A stretch of DNA of 64,000 nucleotides from Candidatus Marinacidobacterium sp. GTDB taxonomy: Bacteria; Acidobacteriota; Vicinamibacteria; Marinacidobacterales; Marinacidobacteraceae. Positions within the stretch are counted from its first letter, which is position 1. The number at the start of each line of letters is the position of its first letter. Under the pieces are notes generated by a model, which had not been told where the DNA came from, searched no databases, and saw nothing but the letters and a program-made list of their open reading frames with translations. The stretch lies in NCBI GenBank assembly GCA_965204755.1, contig OZ242011.1:1984001-2048000 (forward strand). Reading direction: 5' to 3'. Below are positions 1,838 to 63,728 of this stretch, piece after piece. Position numbers and translations under genes: made by a program.

Positions 1838-4243
<2,406 letters not shown>

Positions 4244-57875: not shown

Positions 57876-58220
57876 GTGGGACTGCGCCTGGTAGTCCCGC
57901 GGGGTCGCGCACAGCGGGCTTCGAGACCGCTGCTCGCCAATGACGAGTCCCGTTGTTATCGGGTTTCCGGGCGCCCCTCAGCGCCGCCGGGACGCGGGCA
58001 AAGTGGGAGCGCGACCCTTGCCCGAATACTACCGAGACTGACCGGGCCAAGCGGAAAGCGTCGCGTGCTATCCTCTGTTTCCAAGGGCCGCATCCTACTA
58101 GCTCTCCCAAAAGGTGAGGAGTGCCTGGCAACTCCAAAAAAGGGACTCGGCTTTGCCGAGCGGAGGGTAGTCGCGGCGCCACCGGGCGGCCCCACGGGGA
58201 CTACCAGGCGCAGTCCCCAC
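57876..58220. repeat. ~33-bp inverted-repeat pair bracketing ~280 bp
   Basis: GTGGGACTGCGCCTGGTAGTCCCGCGGGGTCGC (57876-57908) vs GCGGCCCCACGGGGACTACCAGGCGCAGTCCCCAC (58186-58220). Confidence 0.7.
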
Positions 58221-58491
58221 CCCCTTCAGGGTTTGCGAAGGACCTCTCGCGTTCGGCCGAGCCGGTTGGCGAGTTGCTGCTCGGTCGTCCCTCGCGGGAA
58301 GAAACCGATCAGATCGATCTTGTCGTTCACCGGGTCGCGCGAATCAGAACTTCCCGTCGACTTGAGCGATGCCCCTCGCTGATGCCGCAGGCCGCGGCCG
58401 GCCGGTCGAGGGTCGGCGTTCGTCCGATCGGGTGGGTCTCAGCGAGGGCAGCGAAGCGCGAGTCCGCGCGCCTCGCCGCCGCGCAGTCGGG

Positions 58492-60063: not shown

Positions 60064-61416
60064 TCAGGAGGGAGCGGTGCGGAACGCCAGCACCCGCGCC
60101 GCGTCCTCGCCCCACTCCGCGGCCTCCGGGCCCGGCTCCAGGTTCTGCCCGTGCAGGTCGCGGATTTCGCGGTAGAGCAGCAGCCGCAACTCCCGGTCGG
60201 CTTCGAGCGGCGCATGCGGCCGCACCACCAGCGTCCGGCTGCCCTCGTCGTAGGCCACTTCGAGGTCGGGGAACGGGTTCCCGTCCGGCTCGTCCTCGTA
60301 GAGCAGGTCCACCGCCGCGTGGAAACTGTCCGCGATCATCCGGTTGGAGAACTGCACCCGGAACTCGCTGTCCAGCGGAATCTCCCGCTCGCCGTCCAGC
60401 GGCAGCGAGAAGACCACCCGCAGCGGCCCGAACTCGGCCTCCCGCGCTTCGCGTTCGGCGATGCGGATGTCCACCGGTTCGAGCGCCGGGTCGCCCGGCG
60501 CCTCCGCGATCTCGAGGCGCTCGGCGCGCAGGTAGGTCTGGCCGTCCGCGGTCCACGGCCGGCCGTACACGCGCAGCCACTTGCCGGTGTCGCGGCGGCG
60601 TTTCGGGTCGAGCCGGAAGCCCTTGCCGGCGGGGCGCATCCCGGTGACCCAGATGGCGGTCTCGCCGGTCTTGATGACGAAGTCGCGCGGCGTCTTCTTG
60701 GTCTTGATCGAGAGGTCGCCGAACAGGTTGTTCCCCCGGAACTTGCCGACGACTTCGACGCGGCGGCCGATGTACGGCTCGGGGTCGGCGAGCAGCCCGT
60801 CGAGGCCGATCGCGGCGGCGCTCCCCGGGGCGATCTCGATGCGGTCGCCGGCGGCCATCTCTTCCTTCGCCTCGCGCTCGCGGCGGTCGGAGAGGTCTTC
60901 GGTGTCGCCGATCGTGGAGACGGAGACGACGGCGAGGAACCCTTCGGTGCGGCGGTCGAGGGTGTTGCCGGAGATCCACGCCGGATCGAACGGGTAGTTC
61001 CGCAGGATCGGGTGCATCTGGAGGGTGTAGGAGTCGAGCATCCGGGTGGAGAAGAACCAGCCCTCGACTTCGACTTCGCTCGCGCCGAGGAACATCAACT
61101 GGTTCCCGGACATGTAGGAGGCCGCCATCAGGATTTCCCGCGAGAGTTCGTCCGGGTCTTCGAGCACCTGCACCCGGTGGTCGGTCCCGAAGGAGAACCC
61201 GACCTTGCCGCGCACCATCACGGCGGACTCGTGGTACCGGCCGGGTAGGCGGGAGAGGTCGGCGACGGAGACCAGTTCCGGCTGGTCGGGGAAGTAGCCG
61301 AACTGCGCGGCGGCCGGGGTCGCGGCGAGGAGCGTCGCGGCGAGGAGGGTCGCGGCGGCGGCGGGCGCGGCCGGTGTCGGGCGGGGTCCGATGCGGACGC
61401 GAACCGCGGGAGTCAT
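60064..61416 (-). CDS. Secreted protein with C-terminal Ig-like (Big_5-like) domain
   Basis: Signal peptide ending PAAAQ; [22 protein letters not shown]; start placed at ATG 61416 because the upstream ATG overlaps a -10-like TGCTACGAT. Confidence 0.6.
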
Positions 61417-61497
61417 GGTGCCTCGGGTCTCCGCAGGGCGTGTCCCGTCGGGCGTTTGCGGAGGGTCGGCCATCGTAGCACCGGGGGCGCGGGCGGC

Positions 61498-61920
61498 GAA
61501 TTGTGTATAGCTGCCGACGGGCGGCGGCGAATTGTGTATAGCTGACCGGTCGGCGGCGAATTGTGTATAGCTCCGGCCTGGCGGCGCGGAATTGTGTATA
61601 GCTCGGGCTCGGCGGCGCGGAATTGTGTATAGCTGCCGGAACCGCGCTCCGAATTGTGTATAGCTTCGGATCGGCGCTCCGGATCGCGCAGGGACGCCCC
61701 CGGTGCGCCCCGGAGGGCGCGCATCGGCCCGAATTCACCCGGAATCGCGTGTGTACGCCGGTGTAGATGCCCCGGATCGCCTACGGCCGCAAGGGGTTGA
61801 GCGGAATTGTGTATAGCTGCCCGGAATTGTGTATAGCTCGACCGAATTGTGTATAGCTGCCGCGCGAATTGTGTATAGCTGCCGCGAATTGTGTATAGGT
61901 GCCGGGAATTGTGTATAGGT
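61498..61920. repeat. Array of 12 direct repeats GAATTGTGTATAG(C/G)T in two phased clusters
   Basis: Starts at 61498, 61529, 61558, 61589, 61620, 61651 (period ~31) and 61804, 61824, 61844, 61866, 61886, 61906 (period 20-22). Confidence 0.95.
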
Positions 61921-62013
61921 GGACGACTCCGCTCCCGCGGGGCGCCGGGGGGTCTGCGCGATCCGCCGGCGGCGCGGAGGGCGGCTGGTAGGGTTGCCTC
62001 GCGGCGGGTGAGC

Positions 62014-63135
62014 ATGGCGGATCGGCAACTCCTCCCGGACTCTCCCGAGGAACCCCCCGGACTCGACCGGATCCGCGGGTGGCTTCGCCGGCCGCGCCCC
62101 CGGCTGCGGGCGGTCTGGCTCTGGTTGCGCTGGCTCGGTCGGGGAATCGCCGGCGGCGCGGGCTGGGTCGGCCGGAACGCGCTGCCGGCGGCGCGGGGCG
62201 TGGGCCGGATCGCCGCCGGCGGAGCGAGGGTGGCGCGCGCCGCCGCGCACATCGGCCGGAGCGCCGGGAAGGTCGGCGCGAGTCTGGGCGAGATGGGGAG
62301 CGGGATGAGCGCCGCCGGCGGCCGGTTCGGGCGGATCGGTTCGGCGCTCTCGAACGCCGGCGGGCGCGTGCGCCGGTTCGGCCGGGGACTCCGCCGCACC
62401 GGCCGGGGCGCCGCCGAAGGCCTCGACAGCGTGTCCGTCCTGGGGCGTCACCTCGAATCCGACGCCCCCCTCGGCCCCCCGCCCGCGGAGGAACTCCCGC
62501 CCCCGGCGCCCGAGGAACCGGAGAGCGGGTCGCCGCCCGTCGAACCGCCGCGGACGCCGCGCACCCGGAAGACCGCGAGTTCCGCGACCGCCTCTTCCGC
62601 CCCGCCGCCGACCCCGCCCGAACCGGCGCAACCCGAACCGCCTGCGGAAGCGGATCGGCCCGCGAAGCCGGCCGCCGGCGCCGCCCGGAAGGCCGCCGCG
62701 AAGCGGAAGCGGAAGCGGTCTTCGCCGCCGCCCGCCCCCACGCCGGCGAAGGAGACCGACGCCCCGCCGAAGGCGAGAGACGAACCGCCGAAGGCGAGGG
62801 ACGAACCGCCGAAGAAGAGCGACGCCGCGCCGAAGGCGCCGCCCGAAACCCCGCCCTCCGACGCCGTGCCGGACGCGCTGCCCGAAGCCTTGCGAGCCCG
62901 CATCGCGGCCCTCGGCAAACGGCCCCGCAAGCAGGCGCTCCGGTCCCTCATCCTGGACATCTGCCGCGTCCGCGAGTGGACGACCGCCACCGAACTGGCC
63001 GCCATCCTCGGGGTGGGCCGGCGGTCGCTCTCCACCCGCCACATCGCCCCGATGGCCGACGCCGGCCTCCTCGAACGGCGCTACCCCGACAACCCCACCA
63101 ACCCCGCCCAGGCCTACCGCGCCCCCGCCGCGTGA
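62014..63135 (+). CDS. Protein with Gly/Arg amphipathic N-terminus, Pro/Ala/Lys linker and C-terminal winged-HTH
   Basis: C-term LILDICRVREWTTATELAAILG..RHIAPMADAGLLERRYPDNPTNPAQAYR resembles the wHTH tail of Fic/AlbA-RecG-like proteins. Confidence 0.7.
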   Translation: MADRQLLPDSPEEPPGLDRIRGWLRRPRPRLRAVWLWLRWLGRGIAGGAGWVGRNALPAARGVGRIAAGGARVARAAAHIGRSAGKVGASLGEMGSGMSAAGGRFGRIGSALSNAGGRVRRFGRGLRRTGRGAAEGLDSVSVLGRHLESDAPLGPPPAEELPPPAPEEPESGSPPVEPPRTPRTRKTASSATASSAPPPTPPEPAQPEPPAEADRPAKPAAGAARKAAAKRKRKRSSPPPAPTPAKETDAPPKARDEPPKARDEPPKKSDAAPKAPPETPPSDAVPDALPEALRARIAALGKRPRKQALRSLILDICRVREWTTATELAAILGVGRRSLSTRHIAPMADAGLLERRYPDNPTNPAQAYRAPAA

Positions 63136-63728
63136 ACCCCCCTCCCGGCCCCGTCCGTCCCCGCCCCGCGTCCGCCGCGCGAGCCCTGCCGCCCCGGCTC
63201 ACCAAGTGGCAGGTCGCCGTCGCCGCCCTCTACCGCCTGCGCGGCGCCGTCGTCCGCCGAGACAGCGAGGACATCGCGCTCGAATGTTTCGAGTTGGCCC
63301 CCCGCCGGTTCGGCTGGCGATCCCATCCCCAGTTGGCGCCGGCCCGCGCCGCCCTCCGCGCCGCGCGCCGCTCCGCCCTCATCTCCGGCGACCACGCCGG
63401 CTGGCTGCTGACCCCCGCCGGCGTTTCCTGGTGCGAAGCCCACTTGCCGGAAGCGAAGCCGCGGCGCCGGCTGCGCGGCTGGTCCGCGCTGGAACGGCGC
63501 GAAGCCGAAGCGTTGCGCCGCCTGCTGCGCCAGCCCCTCCATACCTGCTGGAAGTCCGGGCAGCGCGCGCCCACGCTGCCGGAAGTGGCCCACACCCTCG
63601 GTTACACCGCCGACACCCCGGTCGCCGCCGTGCTACGCCGCCTGGACGACCTGTCCGCCCTCGCCCGATTCGCCGACCTCTCCGAAGTCCGGCGCTACCT
63701 GGACTGGCTCCGAAGCGGCGCCGCCTGA
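63132..63728 (+). CDS. Hypothetical winged-helix-like protein
   Basis: VAALYRLRG..SEDIALECFELAPRRFGW..GWLLTPAG; GTGA-coupled. Confidence 0.6.
   Translation: MNPPPGPVRPRPASAARALPPRLTKWQVAVAALYRLRGAVVRRDSEDIALECFELAPRRFGWRSHPQLAPARAALRAARRSALISGDHAGWLLTPAGVSWCEAHLPEAKPRRRLRGWSALERREAEALRRLLRQPLHTCWKSGQRAPTLPEVAHTLGYTADTPVAAVLRRLDDLSALARFADLSEVRRYLDWLRSGAA

What the first reader, a model, noticed from the sequence alone, without database searches (positions are those of the whole stretch)
61498..61920. Helically phased 12-copy array of a DnaA-box-like 15-mer carrying the otherwise avoided AGCT site
Seen: GAATTGTGTATAGCT six times at ~31-bp period (3 turns), a ~140-bp gap, then six times at 20-22-bp period (2 turns). 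All copies face the same way, the cores are invariant except AGGT in the last two, and the GC-rich spacers diverge. The array sits between divergent genes with -10-like boxes on both sides. Established: the reverse strand contains CTATACACA, one mismatch from DnaA box TTATACACA, and phased repeats are typical of iterons, centromeres and cooperative operators. Ten copies keep AGCT, which seems purged elsewhere. Inference: a selected, possibly methylation-sensitive protein-binding platform (origin or DnaA-titration site, centromere-like anchor, or operator array for the adjacent wHTH proteins). No dnaA, rep or AT-rich unwinding element is visible. This is my best candidate for an undescribed system.
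Basis: partly seen in the sequence, partly recalled or inferred. Interest (0 to 1): 0.85.

Follow-up and report, generated by a model that had tools for sequence, protein, structure and literature searches.

The report
Repeat arrays matched to winged-helix proteins
The twelve phased repeats are one of nine scattered docking arrays that most likely bind the DNA-binding protein encoded right next to them, and they reveal an undescribed protein-plus-repeat system found only in one family of marine Acidobacteriota.

Summary
There are 12 same-strand copies of GAATTGTGTATAG(C/G)T at 61498-61920, six at 29-31 bp and six at 20-22 bp (0.06 expected). The array is not unique. The genome carries 104 copies in nine two-block arrays beside unrelated housekeeping genes.

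The decisive result is that the adjacent gene (62014-63135, C-terminal winged helix) belongs to a family confined to one bacterial family. Thirty of 40 homologue loci carry their own phased direct-repeat array, against 51 of 1500 control windows. Orthologues share a motif and paralogues differ. The genome's two other paralogues each sit beside an array of a different motif, and each motif is also scattered over several loci.

So the array is most likely the cognate binding platform of the neighbouring protein: a "home" operator with "satellite" copies elsewhere. The layout resembles TubR-tubC and StbA-stbS, but it is chromosomal and no NTPase gene was seen nearby. The origin and DnaA readings are rejected. 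Satellites are absent at the matching place in the sister species at 6 of 6 sites tested, so they turn over fast. Binding itself is inferred, and the cellular role (locus tethering, regulation, or selfish spread) is open.

The parts
61498..61665 (+). Block 1 of the 'home' array: six copies of GAATTGTGTATAGCT at 29-31 bp (about 3 helical turns)
61666..61803 (.). GC-rich gap between the two blocks (138 bp here, 140-222 bp between cores in the nine loci). It is not conserved between loci and holds a transition-decayed copy, GGATCGCCTACGGCC, at 61774-61788. The motif CGGATCG is enriched on this strand.
61804..61920 (+). Block 2 of the 'home' array: six copies at 20-22 bp (about 2 turns). The last two end in AGGT.
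62014..63135 (+). Gene of the proposed cognate binder ('paralogue A', 373 aa). It has an N-terminal PPGLDxIR motif and a Trp-rich helix, three long helices (residues 29-150), a disordered Pro-rich linker (151-290) and a C-terminal winged helix (291-373, pLDDT above 95).
62884..63132 (+). C-terminal winged-helix DNA-binding domain of paralogue A. The putative recognition-helix stretch reads RRSLSTRHIAPM. This stretch is similar in homologues that share a repeat motif and differs between motif classes.

Best explanation
The array is the cognate multi-site binding platform of the winged-helix protein encoded immediately downstream (62014-63135). It is the 'home' array of that gene. Eight 'satellite' arrays of the same 13-mer lie elsewhere on the chromosome. 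Proposed mechanism, inferred rather than shown: each 13-mer is an asymmetric site for one winged-helix domain. Spacing of about 2 or 3 helical turns puts all sites on one face of the DNA, so proteins load head-to-tail. The long N-terminal helices join bound proteins into one large nucleoprotein complex. At home this complex overlaps the gene's own control region and would autoregulate it, as centromere-binding proteins do. At satellites it gives the same protein further anchoring or titration points, which could bridge distant loci or tether them (the Trp-rich amphipathic N-terminal helix might touch the membrane). Each paralogue has a private motif, so one cell can run several independent sets of arrays. 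Shown: the gene-array association, the protein-motif covariation, selection on the core, dispersal, and rapid turnover of satellites. Inferred: binding itself, cooperativity, autoregulation and the cellular role.
For: (1) Association. The C-terminal domain has homologues in 20 of 27 other genomes of the same family and in 0 of 27 genomes of the two sister families, with 1-7 copies per genome. All 40 homologue loci that were fetched were scored. Thirty carry at least 5 exact same-strand copies of a 9-mer at 12-70 bp spacing, against 51 of 1500 random 3.55-kb windows of this genome. By a looser rule, 18 of the first 20 do. Arrays mostly end 30-250 bp upstream of the gene start, and some also follow the stop codon.
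(2) Covariation. Homologues from different genomes that share one motif: L073/L083/L084 with TATCGACCGGAGCT; L076/L082 with TTAGTGACAGGAGCT; L070/L081 with TATCGC(A/C)CCCAG; L069/L074 with AGCAATGGTCAA; and this genome's paralogue B with G001's L065, both AAAGACACAGG. Their putative recognition-helix stretches are alike within a motif class and differ between classes.
(3) Within this genome, all three paralogues sit beside an array of their own motif. A: this locus. B: a two-block AAAGACACAGGCT array ending about 130 bp upstream of its start. C: a GGGGGTCGAT-type array just beyond its 3' end. Each motif is also scattered, over 9 loci, 5 loci and about 5 loci.
(4) Selection on the site. The 13-mer is exact in 100 of 104 copies, whereas spacers differ within and between arrays. 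Strain polymorphisms listed at this locus fall at position 14 and in spacers.
(5) Phasing. Periods are 19-22 or 31-34 bp in nearly all arrays.
(6) A motif goes with its protein. G008 lacks the TATCGACCGGAGCT paralogue and has 2 near-matches, while G014 has 179 and G018 has 105, including satellites. G001 lacks paralogue A at the syntenic site and has 0 copies of motif 1.
(7) The protein is built for the job, with a confident winged helix and long helices that could oligomerise.
Against: No binding data exist, so everything rests on co-location and covariation. Ten of the 40 homologue loci show no array by the strict rule, including all 3 loci from genus g6. The control windows come from this genome, not from the genomes tested. 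Eight of the nine motif-1 arrays have no such gene nearby, and their neighbours are unrelated housekeeping genes. A role at satellites is therefore pure inference. Paralogue C's array lies downstream, not upstream, so 'autoregulation' does not fit every case. Gene starts were called crudely as the first ATG or GTG in frame. Satellites are not conserved in position between the two species of the genus (6 of 6 tested). That weakens any fixed architectural role and fits selfish spread equally well. No sigma-70-like promoter was found in the array. The fold match of the DNA-binding domain is generic, with no Foldseek hit at E <= 0.001.
Confidence: 0.7

Rival explanations
1. Selfish or mobile repeat element. 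The arrays are non-autonomous, MITE-like derivatives that spread through intergenic DNA. The winged-helix gene is the element's own maintenance or copy-control factor, and satellites have no host function. This accepts binding but denies a cellular role.
For: Satellites are insertions relative to the sister species: 4 of 4 motif-1 loci and 2 of 2 motif-2 satellites. This holds even though G001 has that motif at five other loci. Six of the nine arrays abut insertion-sequence end remnants. A 17-mer that forms the inverted ends of a 1.15-1.5 kb IS3-like element in G013 occurs 6 times here, 5 of them within 400 bp of an array, and a second IS-end-like double repeat lies at three loci. Paralogue number varies from 1 to 7. 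Paralogue A plus its array is an indel of about 1.8 kb against G001.
Against: The protein has no transposase, recombinase or replicase domain, and the arrays have no terminal inverted repeats or target duplications. The IS ends point away from the arrays, so the arrays are targets or neighbours rather than cargo. Core invariance beside variable spacers implies long-term selection for binding at satellites too.
Confidence: 0.2
2. DnaA-box cluster: a replication origin, or a datA/DBC-like site that titrates DnaA.
For: CTATACACA matches the TTATNCACA consensus at 8 of 9 positions. The genome otherwise has only 6 TTWTNCACA sites and no cluster anywhere, not even near dnaA. B. subtilis has six dispersed DnaA-box clusters outside oriC (PMC3245932, abstract seen).
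Against: Conservation covers 13 bp, not 9. The same two-block architecture occurs with two unrelated motifs that look nothing like a DnaA box, and with about a dozen other motifs in relatives. The sister species has 0 copies and no phased TGTGNATA pairs. dnaA lies 220 kb away and gene-strand bias places the origin near it. A DnaA-box look-alike also occurs by chance in an unrelated MITE of relatives.
Confidence: 0.03
3. The arrays are bound by some other factor, or act through DNA mechanics alone. Phased runs of flexible TG/TA steps in stiff 72% G+C DNA could give curvature or wrapping, or make a preferred IS target. The winged-helix gene is then only a frequent neighbour.
For: TGTGTATA is an unbroken run of pyrimidine-purine steps in helical phase (sequence). 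IS remnants cluster at array edges.
Against: Many arrays in relatives are G+C-rich, for example GGGTGGTCGAT and TATCGACCGGAGCT, so no common mechanical property exists. Protein-motif covariation is left unexplained.
Confidence: 0.05
4. The repeats work as RNA, for example a transcribed sponge for an RNA-binding protein, or processed small RNAs.
For: None directly. The reverse strand of the array has no stop codons and could be transcribed from the neighbouring gene's side.
Against: There is no Rfam match (best E 0.82). Spacing that follows the DNA helical repeat (20-21 and 31-33 bp) has no meaning for RNA.
Confidence: 0.02

Closest known systems
TubR-tubC, centromere-binding protein and centromere of type III (TubZRC) plasmid partition systems (PMC6009700, passage read)
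   Same: [quoted passage not shown] Binding both represses the operon and builds a higher-order complex.
   Different: TubR systems are on plasmids and prophages and come with the TubZ GTPase. Here the system is chromosomal, and no NTPase was seen among the neighbours examined. Periods are 2-3 turns instead of contiguous 12-bp repeats. Arrays reach 47-58 copies. Satellites lie at other loci. The protein has a different build (N-terminal helices, long linker, C-terminal winged helix) and no sequence-family match.
StbA-stbS of plasmid R388 (bioRxiv 10.1101/2022.04.29.490116, abstract and passages read)
   Same: A single HTH protein without a dedicated NTPase. The centromere-like site is two sets of five direct repeats in the promoter of its own operon. 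Further arrays of the same repeat lie at other promoters. The site is helically phased and the operon is autoregulated.
   Different: StbA has an N-terminal PadR-like HTH, 9-bp repeats at an 11-bp period, and sits on one plasmid. Here the domain order is reversed, units are longer and spaced wider, and the replicon is the chromosome. The family has also diversified into paralogues with private motifs.
Iteron-Rep replicons (Rep_3 family and relatives)
   Same: 13-15 bp conserved units repeated at about 20-22 bp on one DNA face, in more than one cluster. An unrelated Rep_3 plasmid contig even uses AATTGTGTATAG inside its three iterons (L023).
   Different: No Rep_3 gene was found in this genome, and there is no AT-rich unwinding element or DnaA boxes beside the arrays. 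Nine plus five plus five loci on one chromosome cannot all be origins.
Dispersed chromosomal site sets for one DNA-binding protein: ParB-parS, Noc-NBS, RacA-ram, MatP-matS (recalled, not retrieved), and B. subtilis DnaA-box clusters (PMC3245932, abstract seen)
   Same: One protein and many cognate sites spread over the chromosome. Noc also binds the membrane through an N-terminal amphipathic helix (recalled).
   Different: Those sites are single and mostly palindromic, and they are conserved across species. Here each locus is a two-block array of 4-10 or more asymmetric direct repeats, the motif is private to a paralogue, and positions change between sister species.

Membership tests
Chromosomal origin / DnaA-box cluster (oriC, datA, DBC) | Cluster of sites matching TTWTNCACA | tested here: inconclusive
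   Each unit holds CTATACACA, an 8 of 9 match (sequence). Conservation extends over 13 bp.
Chromosomal origin / DnaA-box cluster (oriC, datA, DBC) | Single locus at or near dnaA/dnaN with a strand-bias turning point, conserved in relatives | tested here: not met
   Nine loci. dnaA is at 1.824 Mb and the array at 2.045 Mb. There are 0 copies in the sister species and only stray single near-matches in 40 relatives.
Iteron-controlled replicon | Rep initiator gene next to the iterons | tested here: not met
   PF01051 (Rep3_N): 0 matches in the genome at E <= 1. The adjacent protein matches only a generic winged helix. Other Rep families were not searched.
Iteron-controlled replicon | Direct repeats of 17-22 bp at about 2 helical turns | tested here: met
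   20-22 bp period in block 2 and in most of the nine loci.
Type III partition (TubZRC) | Direct repeats in discontinuous blocks upstream of the HTH gene | tested here: met
   Two blocks end 94 bp upstream of 62014. The same holds at paralogue B and at most homologue loci.
Type III partition (TubZRC) | TubZ (tubulin-like GTPase) gene in the operon, on a plasmid or prophage | tested here: not met
   Neighbours are Big_5, an ORF with no Pfam match, a PIN domain, a C5 methylase and unknowns. The context is housekeeping chromosome. Only immediate neighbours of the 3 paralogues in this genome were scanned.
StbA/stbS-type NTPase-less segregation | Two sets of direct repeats in the gene's own promoter, plus further arrays of the same repeat elsewhere on the replicon | tested here: met
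StbA/stbS-type NTPase-less segregation | N-terminal PadR-like HTH protein of the StbA family | tested here: not met
   The winged helix is C-terminal. There is no PadR or StbA match in Pfam or NCBIfam.
MITE / insertion-sequence derivative | Terminal inverted repeats and target-site duplication, with copies alike along their whole length | tested here: not met
   All units are direct. Gaps and spacers are not alignable between loci. No duplication is visible at the clean insertion boundary of locus 8.
CRISPR array | Repeats of 23-47 bp separated by unique spacers of similar length | tested here: not met
   13-15 bp repeats with 5-18 bp G+C-only spacers.

The most novel reading that the evidence does not exclude
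One family of marine Acidobacteriota has evolved an addressable chromosome-tethering system. Paralogous anchor proteins each carry a private DNA 'address' of 11-15 bp. Each polymerises on phased arrays of that address and bridges, or pins to the envelope, its own set of 4-9 chromosomal loci. New addresses arise by gene duplication and divergence of the recognition helix. Their arrays then spread to fresh intergenic sites within the lifetime of a species. It would be a centromere-like system without a motor, working on a chromosome and multiplexed within one cell.
Probability: 0.22. Interest if true: 0.9.

Novelty: new variant of a known kind. Interest (0 to 1): 0.74.

Why it matters
Bacterial proteins that build large complexes on arrays of direct repeats are known almost only from plasmids and phages, as partition centromeres and iterons. 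In those cases one protein serves one replicon. Here the same logic appears on a chromosome, in up to seven parallel versions per genome, with arrays of up to about 58 sites and satellite arrays among housekeeping genes.

If the proteins bind as proposed, the family offers a natural set of orthogonal protein-DNA address pairs. Recognition helix and site can be read side by side across dozens of pairs. It also gives a directly testable case of how new binding-site arrays are born, spread and decay.

The result further explains why an AT-rich 15-mer, with a tetranucleotide the genome otherwise purges 25-fold, survives in 104 copies. Finally it removes a tempting but wrong 'second origin / DnaA sink' reading.

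Tried and rejected
- Origin / DnaA. Cumulative GC skew is weak and irregular. Gene-strand bias and the dnaA/parB positions place the origin near 1.8 Mb. No canonical DnaA-box cluster was found anywhere. This reading is rejected for the reasons given under rivals.
- Array orientation against replication direction shows no pattern: 3 arrays co-oriented and 6 anti-oriented.
- Even spacing of the nine arrays. The coefficient of variation of gaps is 0.56, P = 0.07. Four gaps lie within 15% of the mean, P = 0.015. The test was post hoc, so this stays an unexplained hint.
- 'The gap is decayed repeats'. Support is weak: 4 forward near-copies against 1.1-1.6 expected. The strand-specific excess of CGGATCG is clearer, 15 against 2.7 expected.
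- Shared neighbour genes. Two arrays lie next to SNF2 helicases, but these are only 32-33% identical in the two aligned helicase stretches and the genome has several more. This is judged to be chance.
- Public collections. The exact two-copy pattern gave 2 chance pairs in 185,579 species genomes, 0 hits in viral contigs, and 19 unrelated low-G+C loci in metagenomes.
- RNA. No RNA holder was listed among the sequencing runs. Rfam found nothing.
- Protein annotation. NCBIfam gave only two sub-threshold hits, the Atlas gave no usable hit, and Foldseek found only generic winged-helix folds.
- AGCT as a constant part of all motifs. It is present in only some motif families.
The queue was full each time and the tool was then declared unavailable, so nothing was folded.
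- AGCT counts in whole relative genomes. Only the pooled 40 fetched loci were counted instead.
- Literature. Four searches found no description of this family or of such chromosomal arrays: DnaA-box clusters; dispersed direct-repeat arrays / centromere-like; iteron-like / winged helix / chromosomal; Acidobacteriota sponge symbiont tandem repeats. The library lacks most subscription journals.

Full report
**1. The observation**

The window holds 12 same-strand copies of GAATTGTGTATAG(C/G)T between 61498 and 61920. Six copies are spaced 29-31 bp apart. After a 153-bp step come six more at 20-22 bp. Dinucleotide-preserving shuffles expect 0.06 matches.

The array lies between divergent ORFs. One is 60064-61473 (-), with a Big_5 domain. 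The other is 62014-63135 (+), with a weak HTH_20 / Fic-like_C match at its C-terminus.

The genome has 332 AGCT where 7446 are expected (O/E 0.04), and ACGT is equally depleted. Seventy of the 332 sit inside this repeat family. The '-10-like boxes' were not reproduced by a consensus scan.

**2. The array is not unique**

The window is G000:C1:1984001-2048000 of a 3.98-Mb, 71.7% G+C single-contig genome. The 13-mer occurs 104 times, 100 of them exact. All copies lie in nine loci: 0.358, 0.756, 1.208, 1.660, 2.045 (this one), 2.895, 2.971, 3.119 and 3.494 Mb.

Every locus has the same layout: a block of 4-10 units, a G+C-rich gap of 140-222 bp, and a second block, all on one strand. No solitary or degenerate copies exist elsewhere.

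The flanking genes are unrelated housekeeping genes. They include hisF, EPSP and DAHP synthases, an amidase, amidohydrolases, a SpoU methylase, an HtrA-like protease and two distant SNF2 helicases.

The 13-mer is essentially invariant, position 14 is C or G, and the spacers are free G+C-rich sequence. Spacers are often duplicated locally but differ between loci. That contrast is what selection for a sequence-specific reader produces. It is not what recent copying or concerted evolution produces.

**3. The origin and DnaA readings**

dnaA and parB lie at 1.82 Mb, and gene-strand bias puts the origin there. GC skew is weak.

The genome has only six canonical DnaA boxes and no cluster anywhere, which at first made the 8-of-9 match tempting. 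Three results argue against it. The motif is absent from 40 relatives, including the complete genome of the sister species G001. Conservation spans 13 bp. And the same architecture recurs with unrelated motifs (section 4 below). A DnaA-box look-alike also turns up by chance in the ends of an unrelated MITE in relatives.

**4. The turning point**

The C-terminal domain of the 62014-63135 protein has two paralogues in the genome.

The region upstream of paralogue B (about 1.047 Mb) contains another two-block array. It has five copies, a gap of about 220 bp and then seven copies. The motif is different, AAAGACACAGGCT, and the array ends about 130 bp before the gene start. That motif forms five two-block arrays in the genome.

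A genome-wide census found a third family, of the GGGGGTCGAT type, at about five loci. One of them abuts the 3' end of paralogue C.

So each of the three paralogues sits beside an array of its own motif, and each motif also has satellites.

**5. Test in relatives**

The domain is found in 20 of 27 other genomes of the same family, with 1-7 copies each. It is found in 0 of 27 genomes of the two sister families of the order.

I fetched 40 homologue loci from 10 genomes. All 40 were scored and none dropped. Thirty carry at least 5 exact same-strand copies of a 9-mer at 12-70 bp spacing, against 51 of 1500 random windows of equal length from this genome. By a looser rule, 18 of the first 20 do. 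The ten misses include all three loci from genus g6.

Arrays have 5 to about 58 units, with periods of 19-22 or 31-34 bp. One locus alternates 20 and 33 bp. Most arrays end just upstream of the gene, and some loci also carry an array right after the stop codon.

Homologues in different genomes that share a motif have closely similar winged-helix sequences, including the putative recognition-helix stretch. Paralogues with other motifs differ there.

Motif presence follows gene presence. TATCGACCGGAGCT has 179 and 105 copies in G014 and G018, which have that paralogue, including satellite loci. It has 2 near-matches in G008, which lacks the paralogue. G001 lacks paralogue A at the syntenic site and has no motif 1.

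**6. The protein**

The alignment of 17 members and the AlphaFold model (mean pLDDT 67.7) agree on the build:
- a short N-terminal motif (PPGLDxIR.W) followed by a Trp-rich amphipathic helix;
- three long helices (residues 29-150, pLDDT about 70-79);
- a Pro/Glu/Lys-rich disordered linker (residues 151-290);
- a confident winged helix (residues 291-373, pLDDT above 95).

Pfam gives only sub-threshold or marginal Fic-like_C / HTH_20 hits, and NCBIfam gives nothing meaningful. Foldseek finds only generic winged-helix folds (Fic C-terminus, ArsR/SmtB, MarR, Z-alpha) at E >= 0.008.

A profile search of 1.84 billion representatives finds 57 proteins at E <= 1e-30, many of them matched along the whole profile. 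More than a thousand further proteins share only the C-terminal domain. Eight unnamed metagenome proteins are 84-91% identical to paralogue A. The family is undescribed in the libraries and papers searched.

**7. Dynamics**

- At 4 of 4 motif-1 loci tested, the sister species has 55-290 bp of ordinary intergenic DNA where this genome has 570-1900 bp. At this locus the extra DNA is the array plus the winged-helix gene.
- For motif 2, which both species possess, 2 of 2 satellites tested are absent from the syntenic place in G001. G001 has its own five loci elsewhere.
- The array at this locus is present, with small indels and an AGCT-to-AGGT polymorphism, in contigs of runs from three other studies.
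- Six of the nine arrays abut remnants of insertion-sequence ends whose interiors point away from the array.

Arrays are therefore gained and lost quickly, and they sit in, or create, insertion-prone intergenic spots. No terminal repeats or target duplications betray a mechanism.

**8. Interpretation**

The best-supported reading is that the array is the cognate, helically phased binding platform of the adjacent winged-helix protein. It is a home array in the gene's control region, with satellites elsewhere.

[quoted passage not shown] It is even closer to StbA-stbS of R388, which has two sets of five repeats in its own promoter, further arrays at other promoters and no dedicated NTPase (bioRxiv 10.1101/2022.04.29.490116, abstract and passages read).

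What it is not: a member of either family. The domain order, the sequence family, the replicon and the missing motor protein all differ (see the membership rows).

Whether the complexes autoregulate, tether or bridge loci, titrate the protein, or merely propagate themselves cannot be decided from sequence. I put about 0.7 on binding by the neighbouring protein. I put about 0.2-0.25 on a genuine chromosome-tethering role and about 0.2 on a purely selfish reading.

**9. Caveats**

- Binding is inferred from co-location and covariation only.
- Control windows came from this genome rather than the tested ones.
- Gene starts are approximate.
- Organism identity ('sponge-associated marine Acidobacteriota') comes from earlier scan notes. 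The only support here is that coded sponge and marine metagenome runs hold the stretch.
- No supplements were consulted.

Noticed in passing
whole genome (G000); window-wide: AGCT and ACGT are each about 25-fold under-represented (332 against 7446 and 265 against 7147 expected), and CTAG about 8-fold. GATC, TCGA and TGCA are normal. In 40 loci from other genera of the family, AGCT is only mildly low (243 against 346) and ACGT is normal. The purge therefore looks specific to this genus and suggests restriction pressure on these two sites.
   Followed up: partly
G000:C1 about 1048600-1049000 (L085:2602-3000, runs on): A C5 cytosine-specific DNA methylase gene starts about 270 bp downstream of winged-helix paralogue B. 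It may bear on the AGCT/ACGT avoidance or on methylation of the arrays.
   Followed up: no
window 57878-58227: A roughly 100-150 bp segment that matches both strands (palindromic). It is multi-copy and clustered at many places in the sister genome G001. It is a separate repeat family.
   Followed up: no
G000:C1 358270, 755722, 1207898, 2895836, 2970739, 245998: A conserved element of about 45 bp beginning TGAGGTYGCCCCGCTTTCGTGGACG. Its first 25 bp or so equal the inverted ends of a 1.15-1.5 kb IS3-like element in relative G013. Five of its six copies lie within 400 bp of a motif-1 array, and the sixth lies next to a motif-2 array.
   Followed up: partly
G000:C1 358315, 2970680, 3119676-3119701, 585905: A second IS-end-like element made of two direct GACACCnACTTTTACGCA repeats ending in TGTCGAG or TGTCAAG. 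It lies beside three arrays and once alone.
   Followed up: no
whole genome; dnaA region 1821500-1823000: No cluster of canonical or Actinobacteria-type DnaA boxes exists anywhere, including upstream of dnaA. The sister species has only 10 TTWTNCACA. The origin of this lineage must use diverged boxes.
   Followed up: partly
G006:C1 and G004:C1 (L056-L062): A MITE of about 183 bp, flanked by TA, with inverted ends CAGGCTGTGGAWAA, is present in dozens of copies. Its ends mimic DnaA boxes by chance.
   Followed up: partly
L023 (metagenome contig), 2501-2556 and 2642-3454: An unrelated low-G+C plasmid-like contig has three 22-bp iterons ACCACCAAATTGTGTATAG and a TTATCCACA box just upstream of a Rep_3 initiator gene. 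The same 12-mer is used as an iteron core elsewhere.
   Followed up: yes
G000:C1 976026-976597, 989039-989873, 1433188-1433642, 1198466-1198751, 2780457-2782384: Further large intergenic direct-repeat arrays with other motifs (CAGCCGGCGG, GTCGGGCCGG, CCTTCTTCCG and others), or with more copies of the third motif. They have not been assigned to any protein.
   Followed up: no
window 61921-61945 and 63190-63728: The 14 bp after the last repeat (GACTCCGCTCCCGC) equal the 5' end of the G001 orthologue of the ORF that in this genome starts only near 63200. The winged-helix gene seems to have been inserted into the very start of that gene.
   Followed up: partly
nine array positions on G000:C1: Five of the nine gaps between motif-1 arrays are 375-452 kb, against a mean of 442 kb. 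The coefficient of variation is 0.56 (P = 0.07), and four gaps lie within 15% of the mean (P = 0.015, post hoc). The largest gap between the 18 arrays mapped (one further motif-3 locus near 2.78 Mb was found later and not included), 727 kb, spans the inferred terminus.
   Followed up: partly
G001:C1:1747246-1748340: At the place syntenic to array locus 3, the sister species has no array. Instead it has three tandem copies of about 210-250 bp of the upstream flank. A partial duplicate of a gene's 3' end lies at the place syntenic to locus 9.
   Followed up: no
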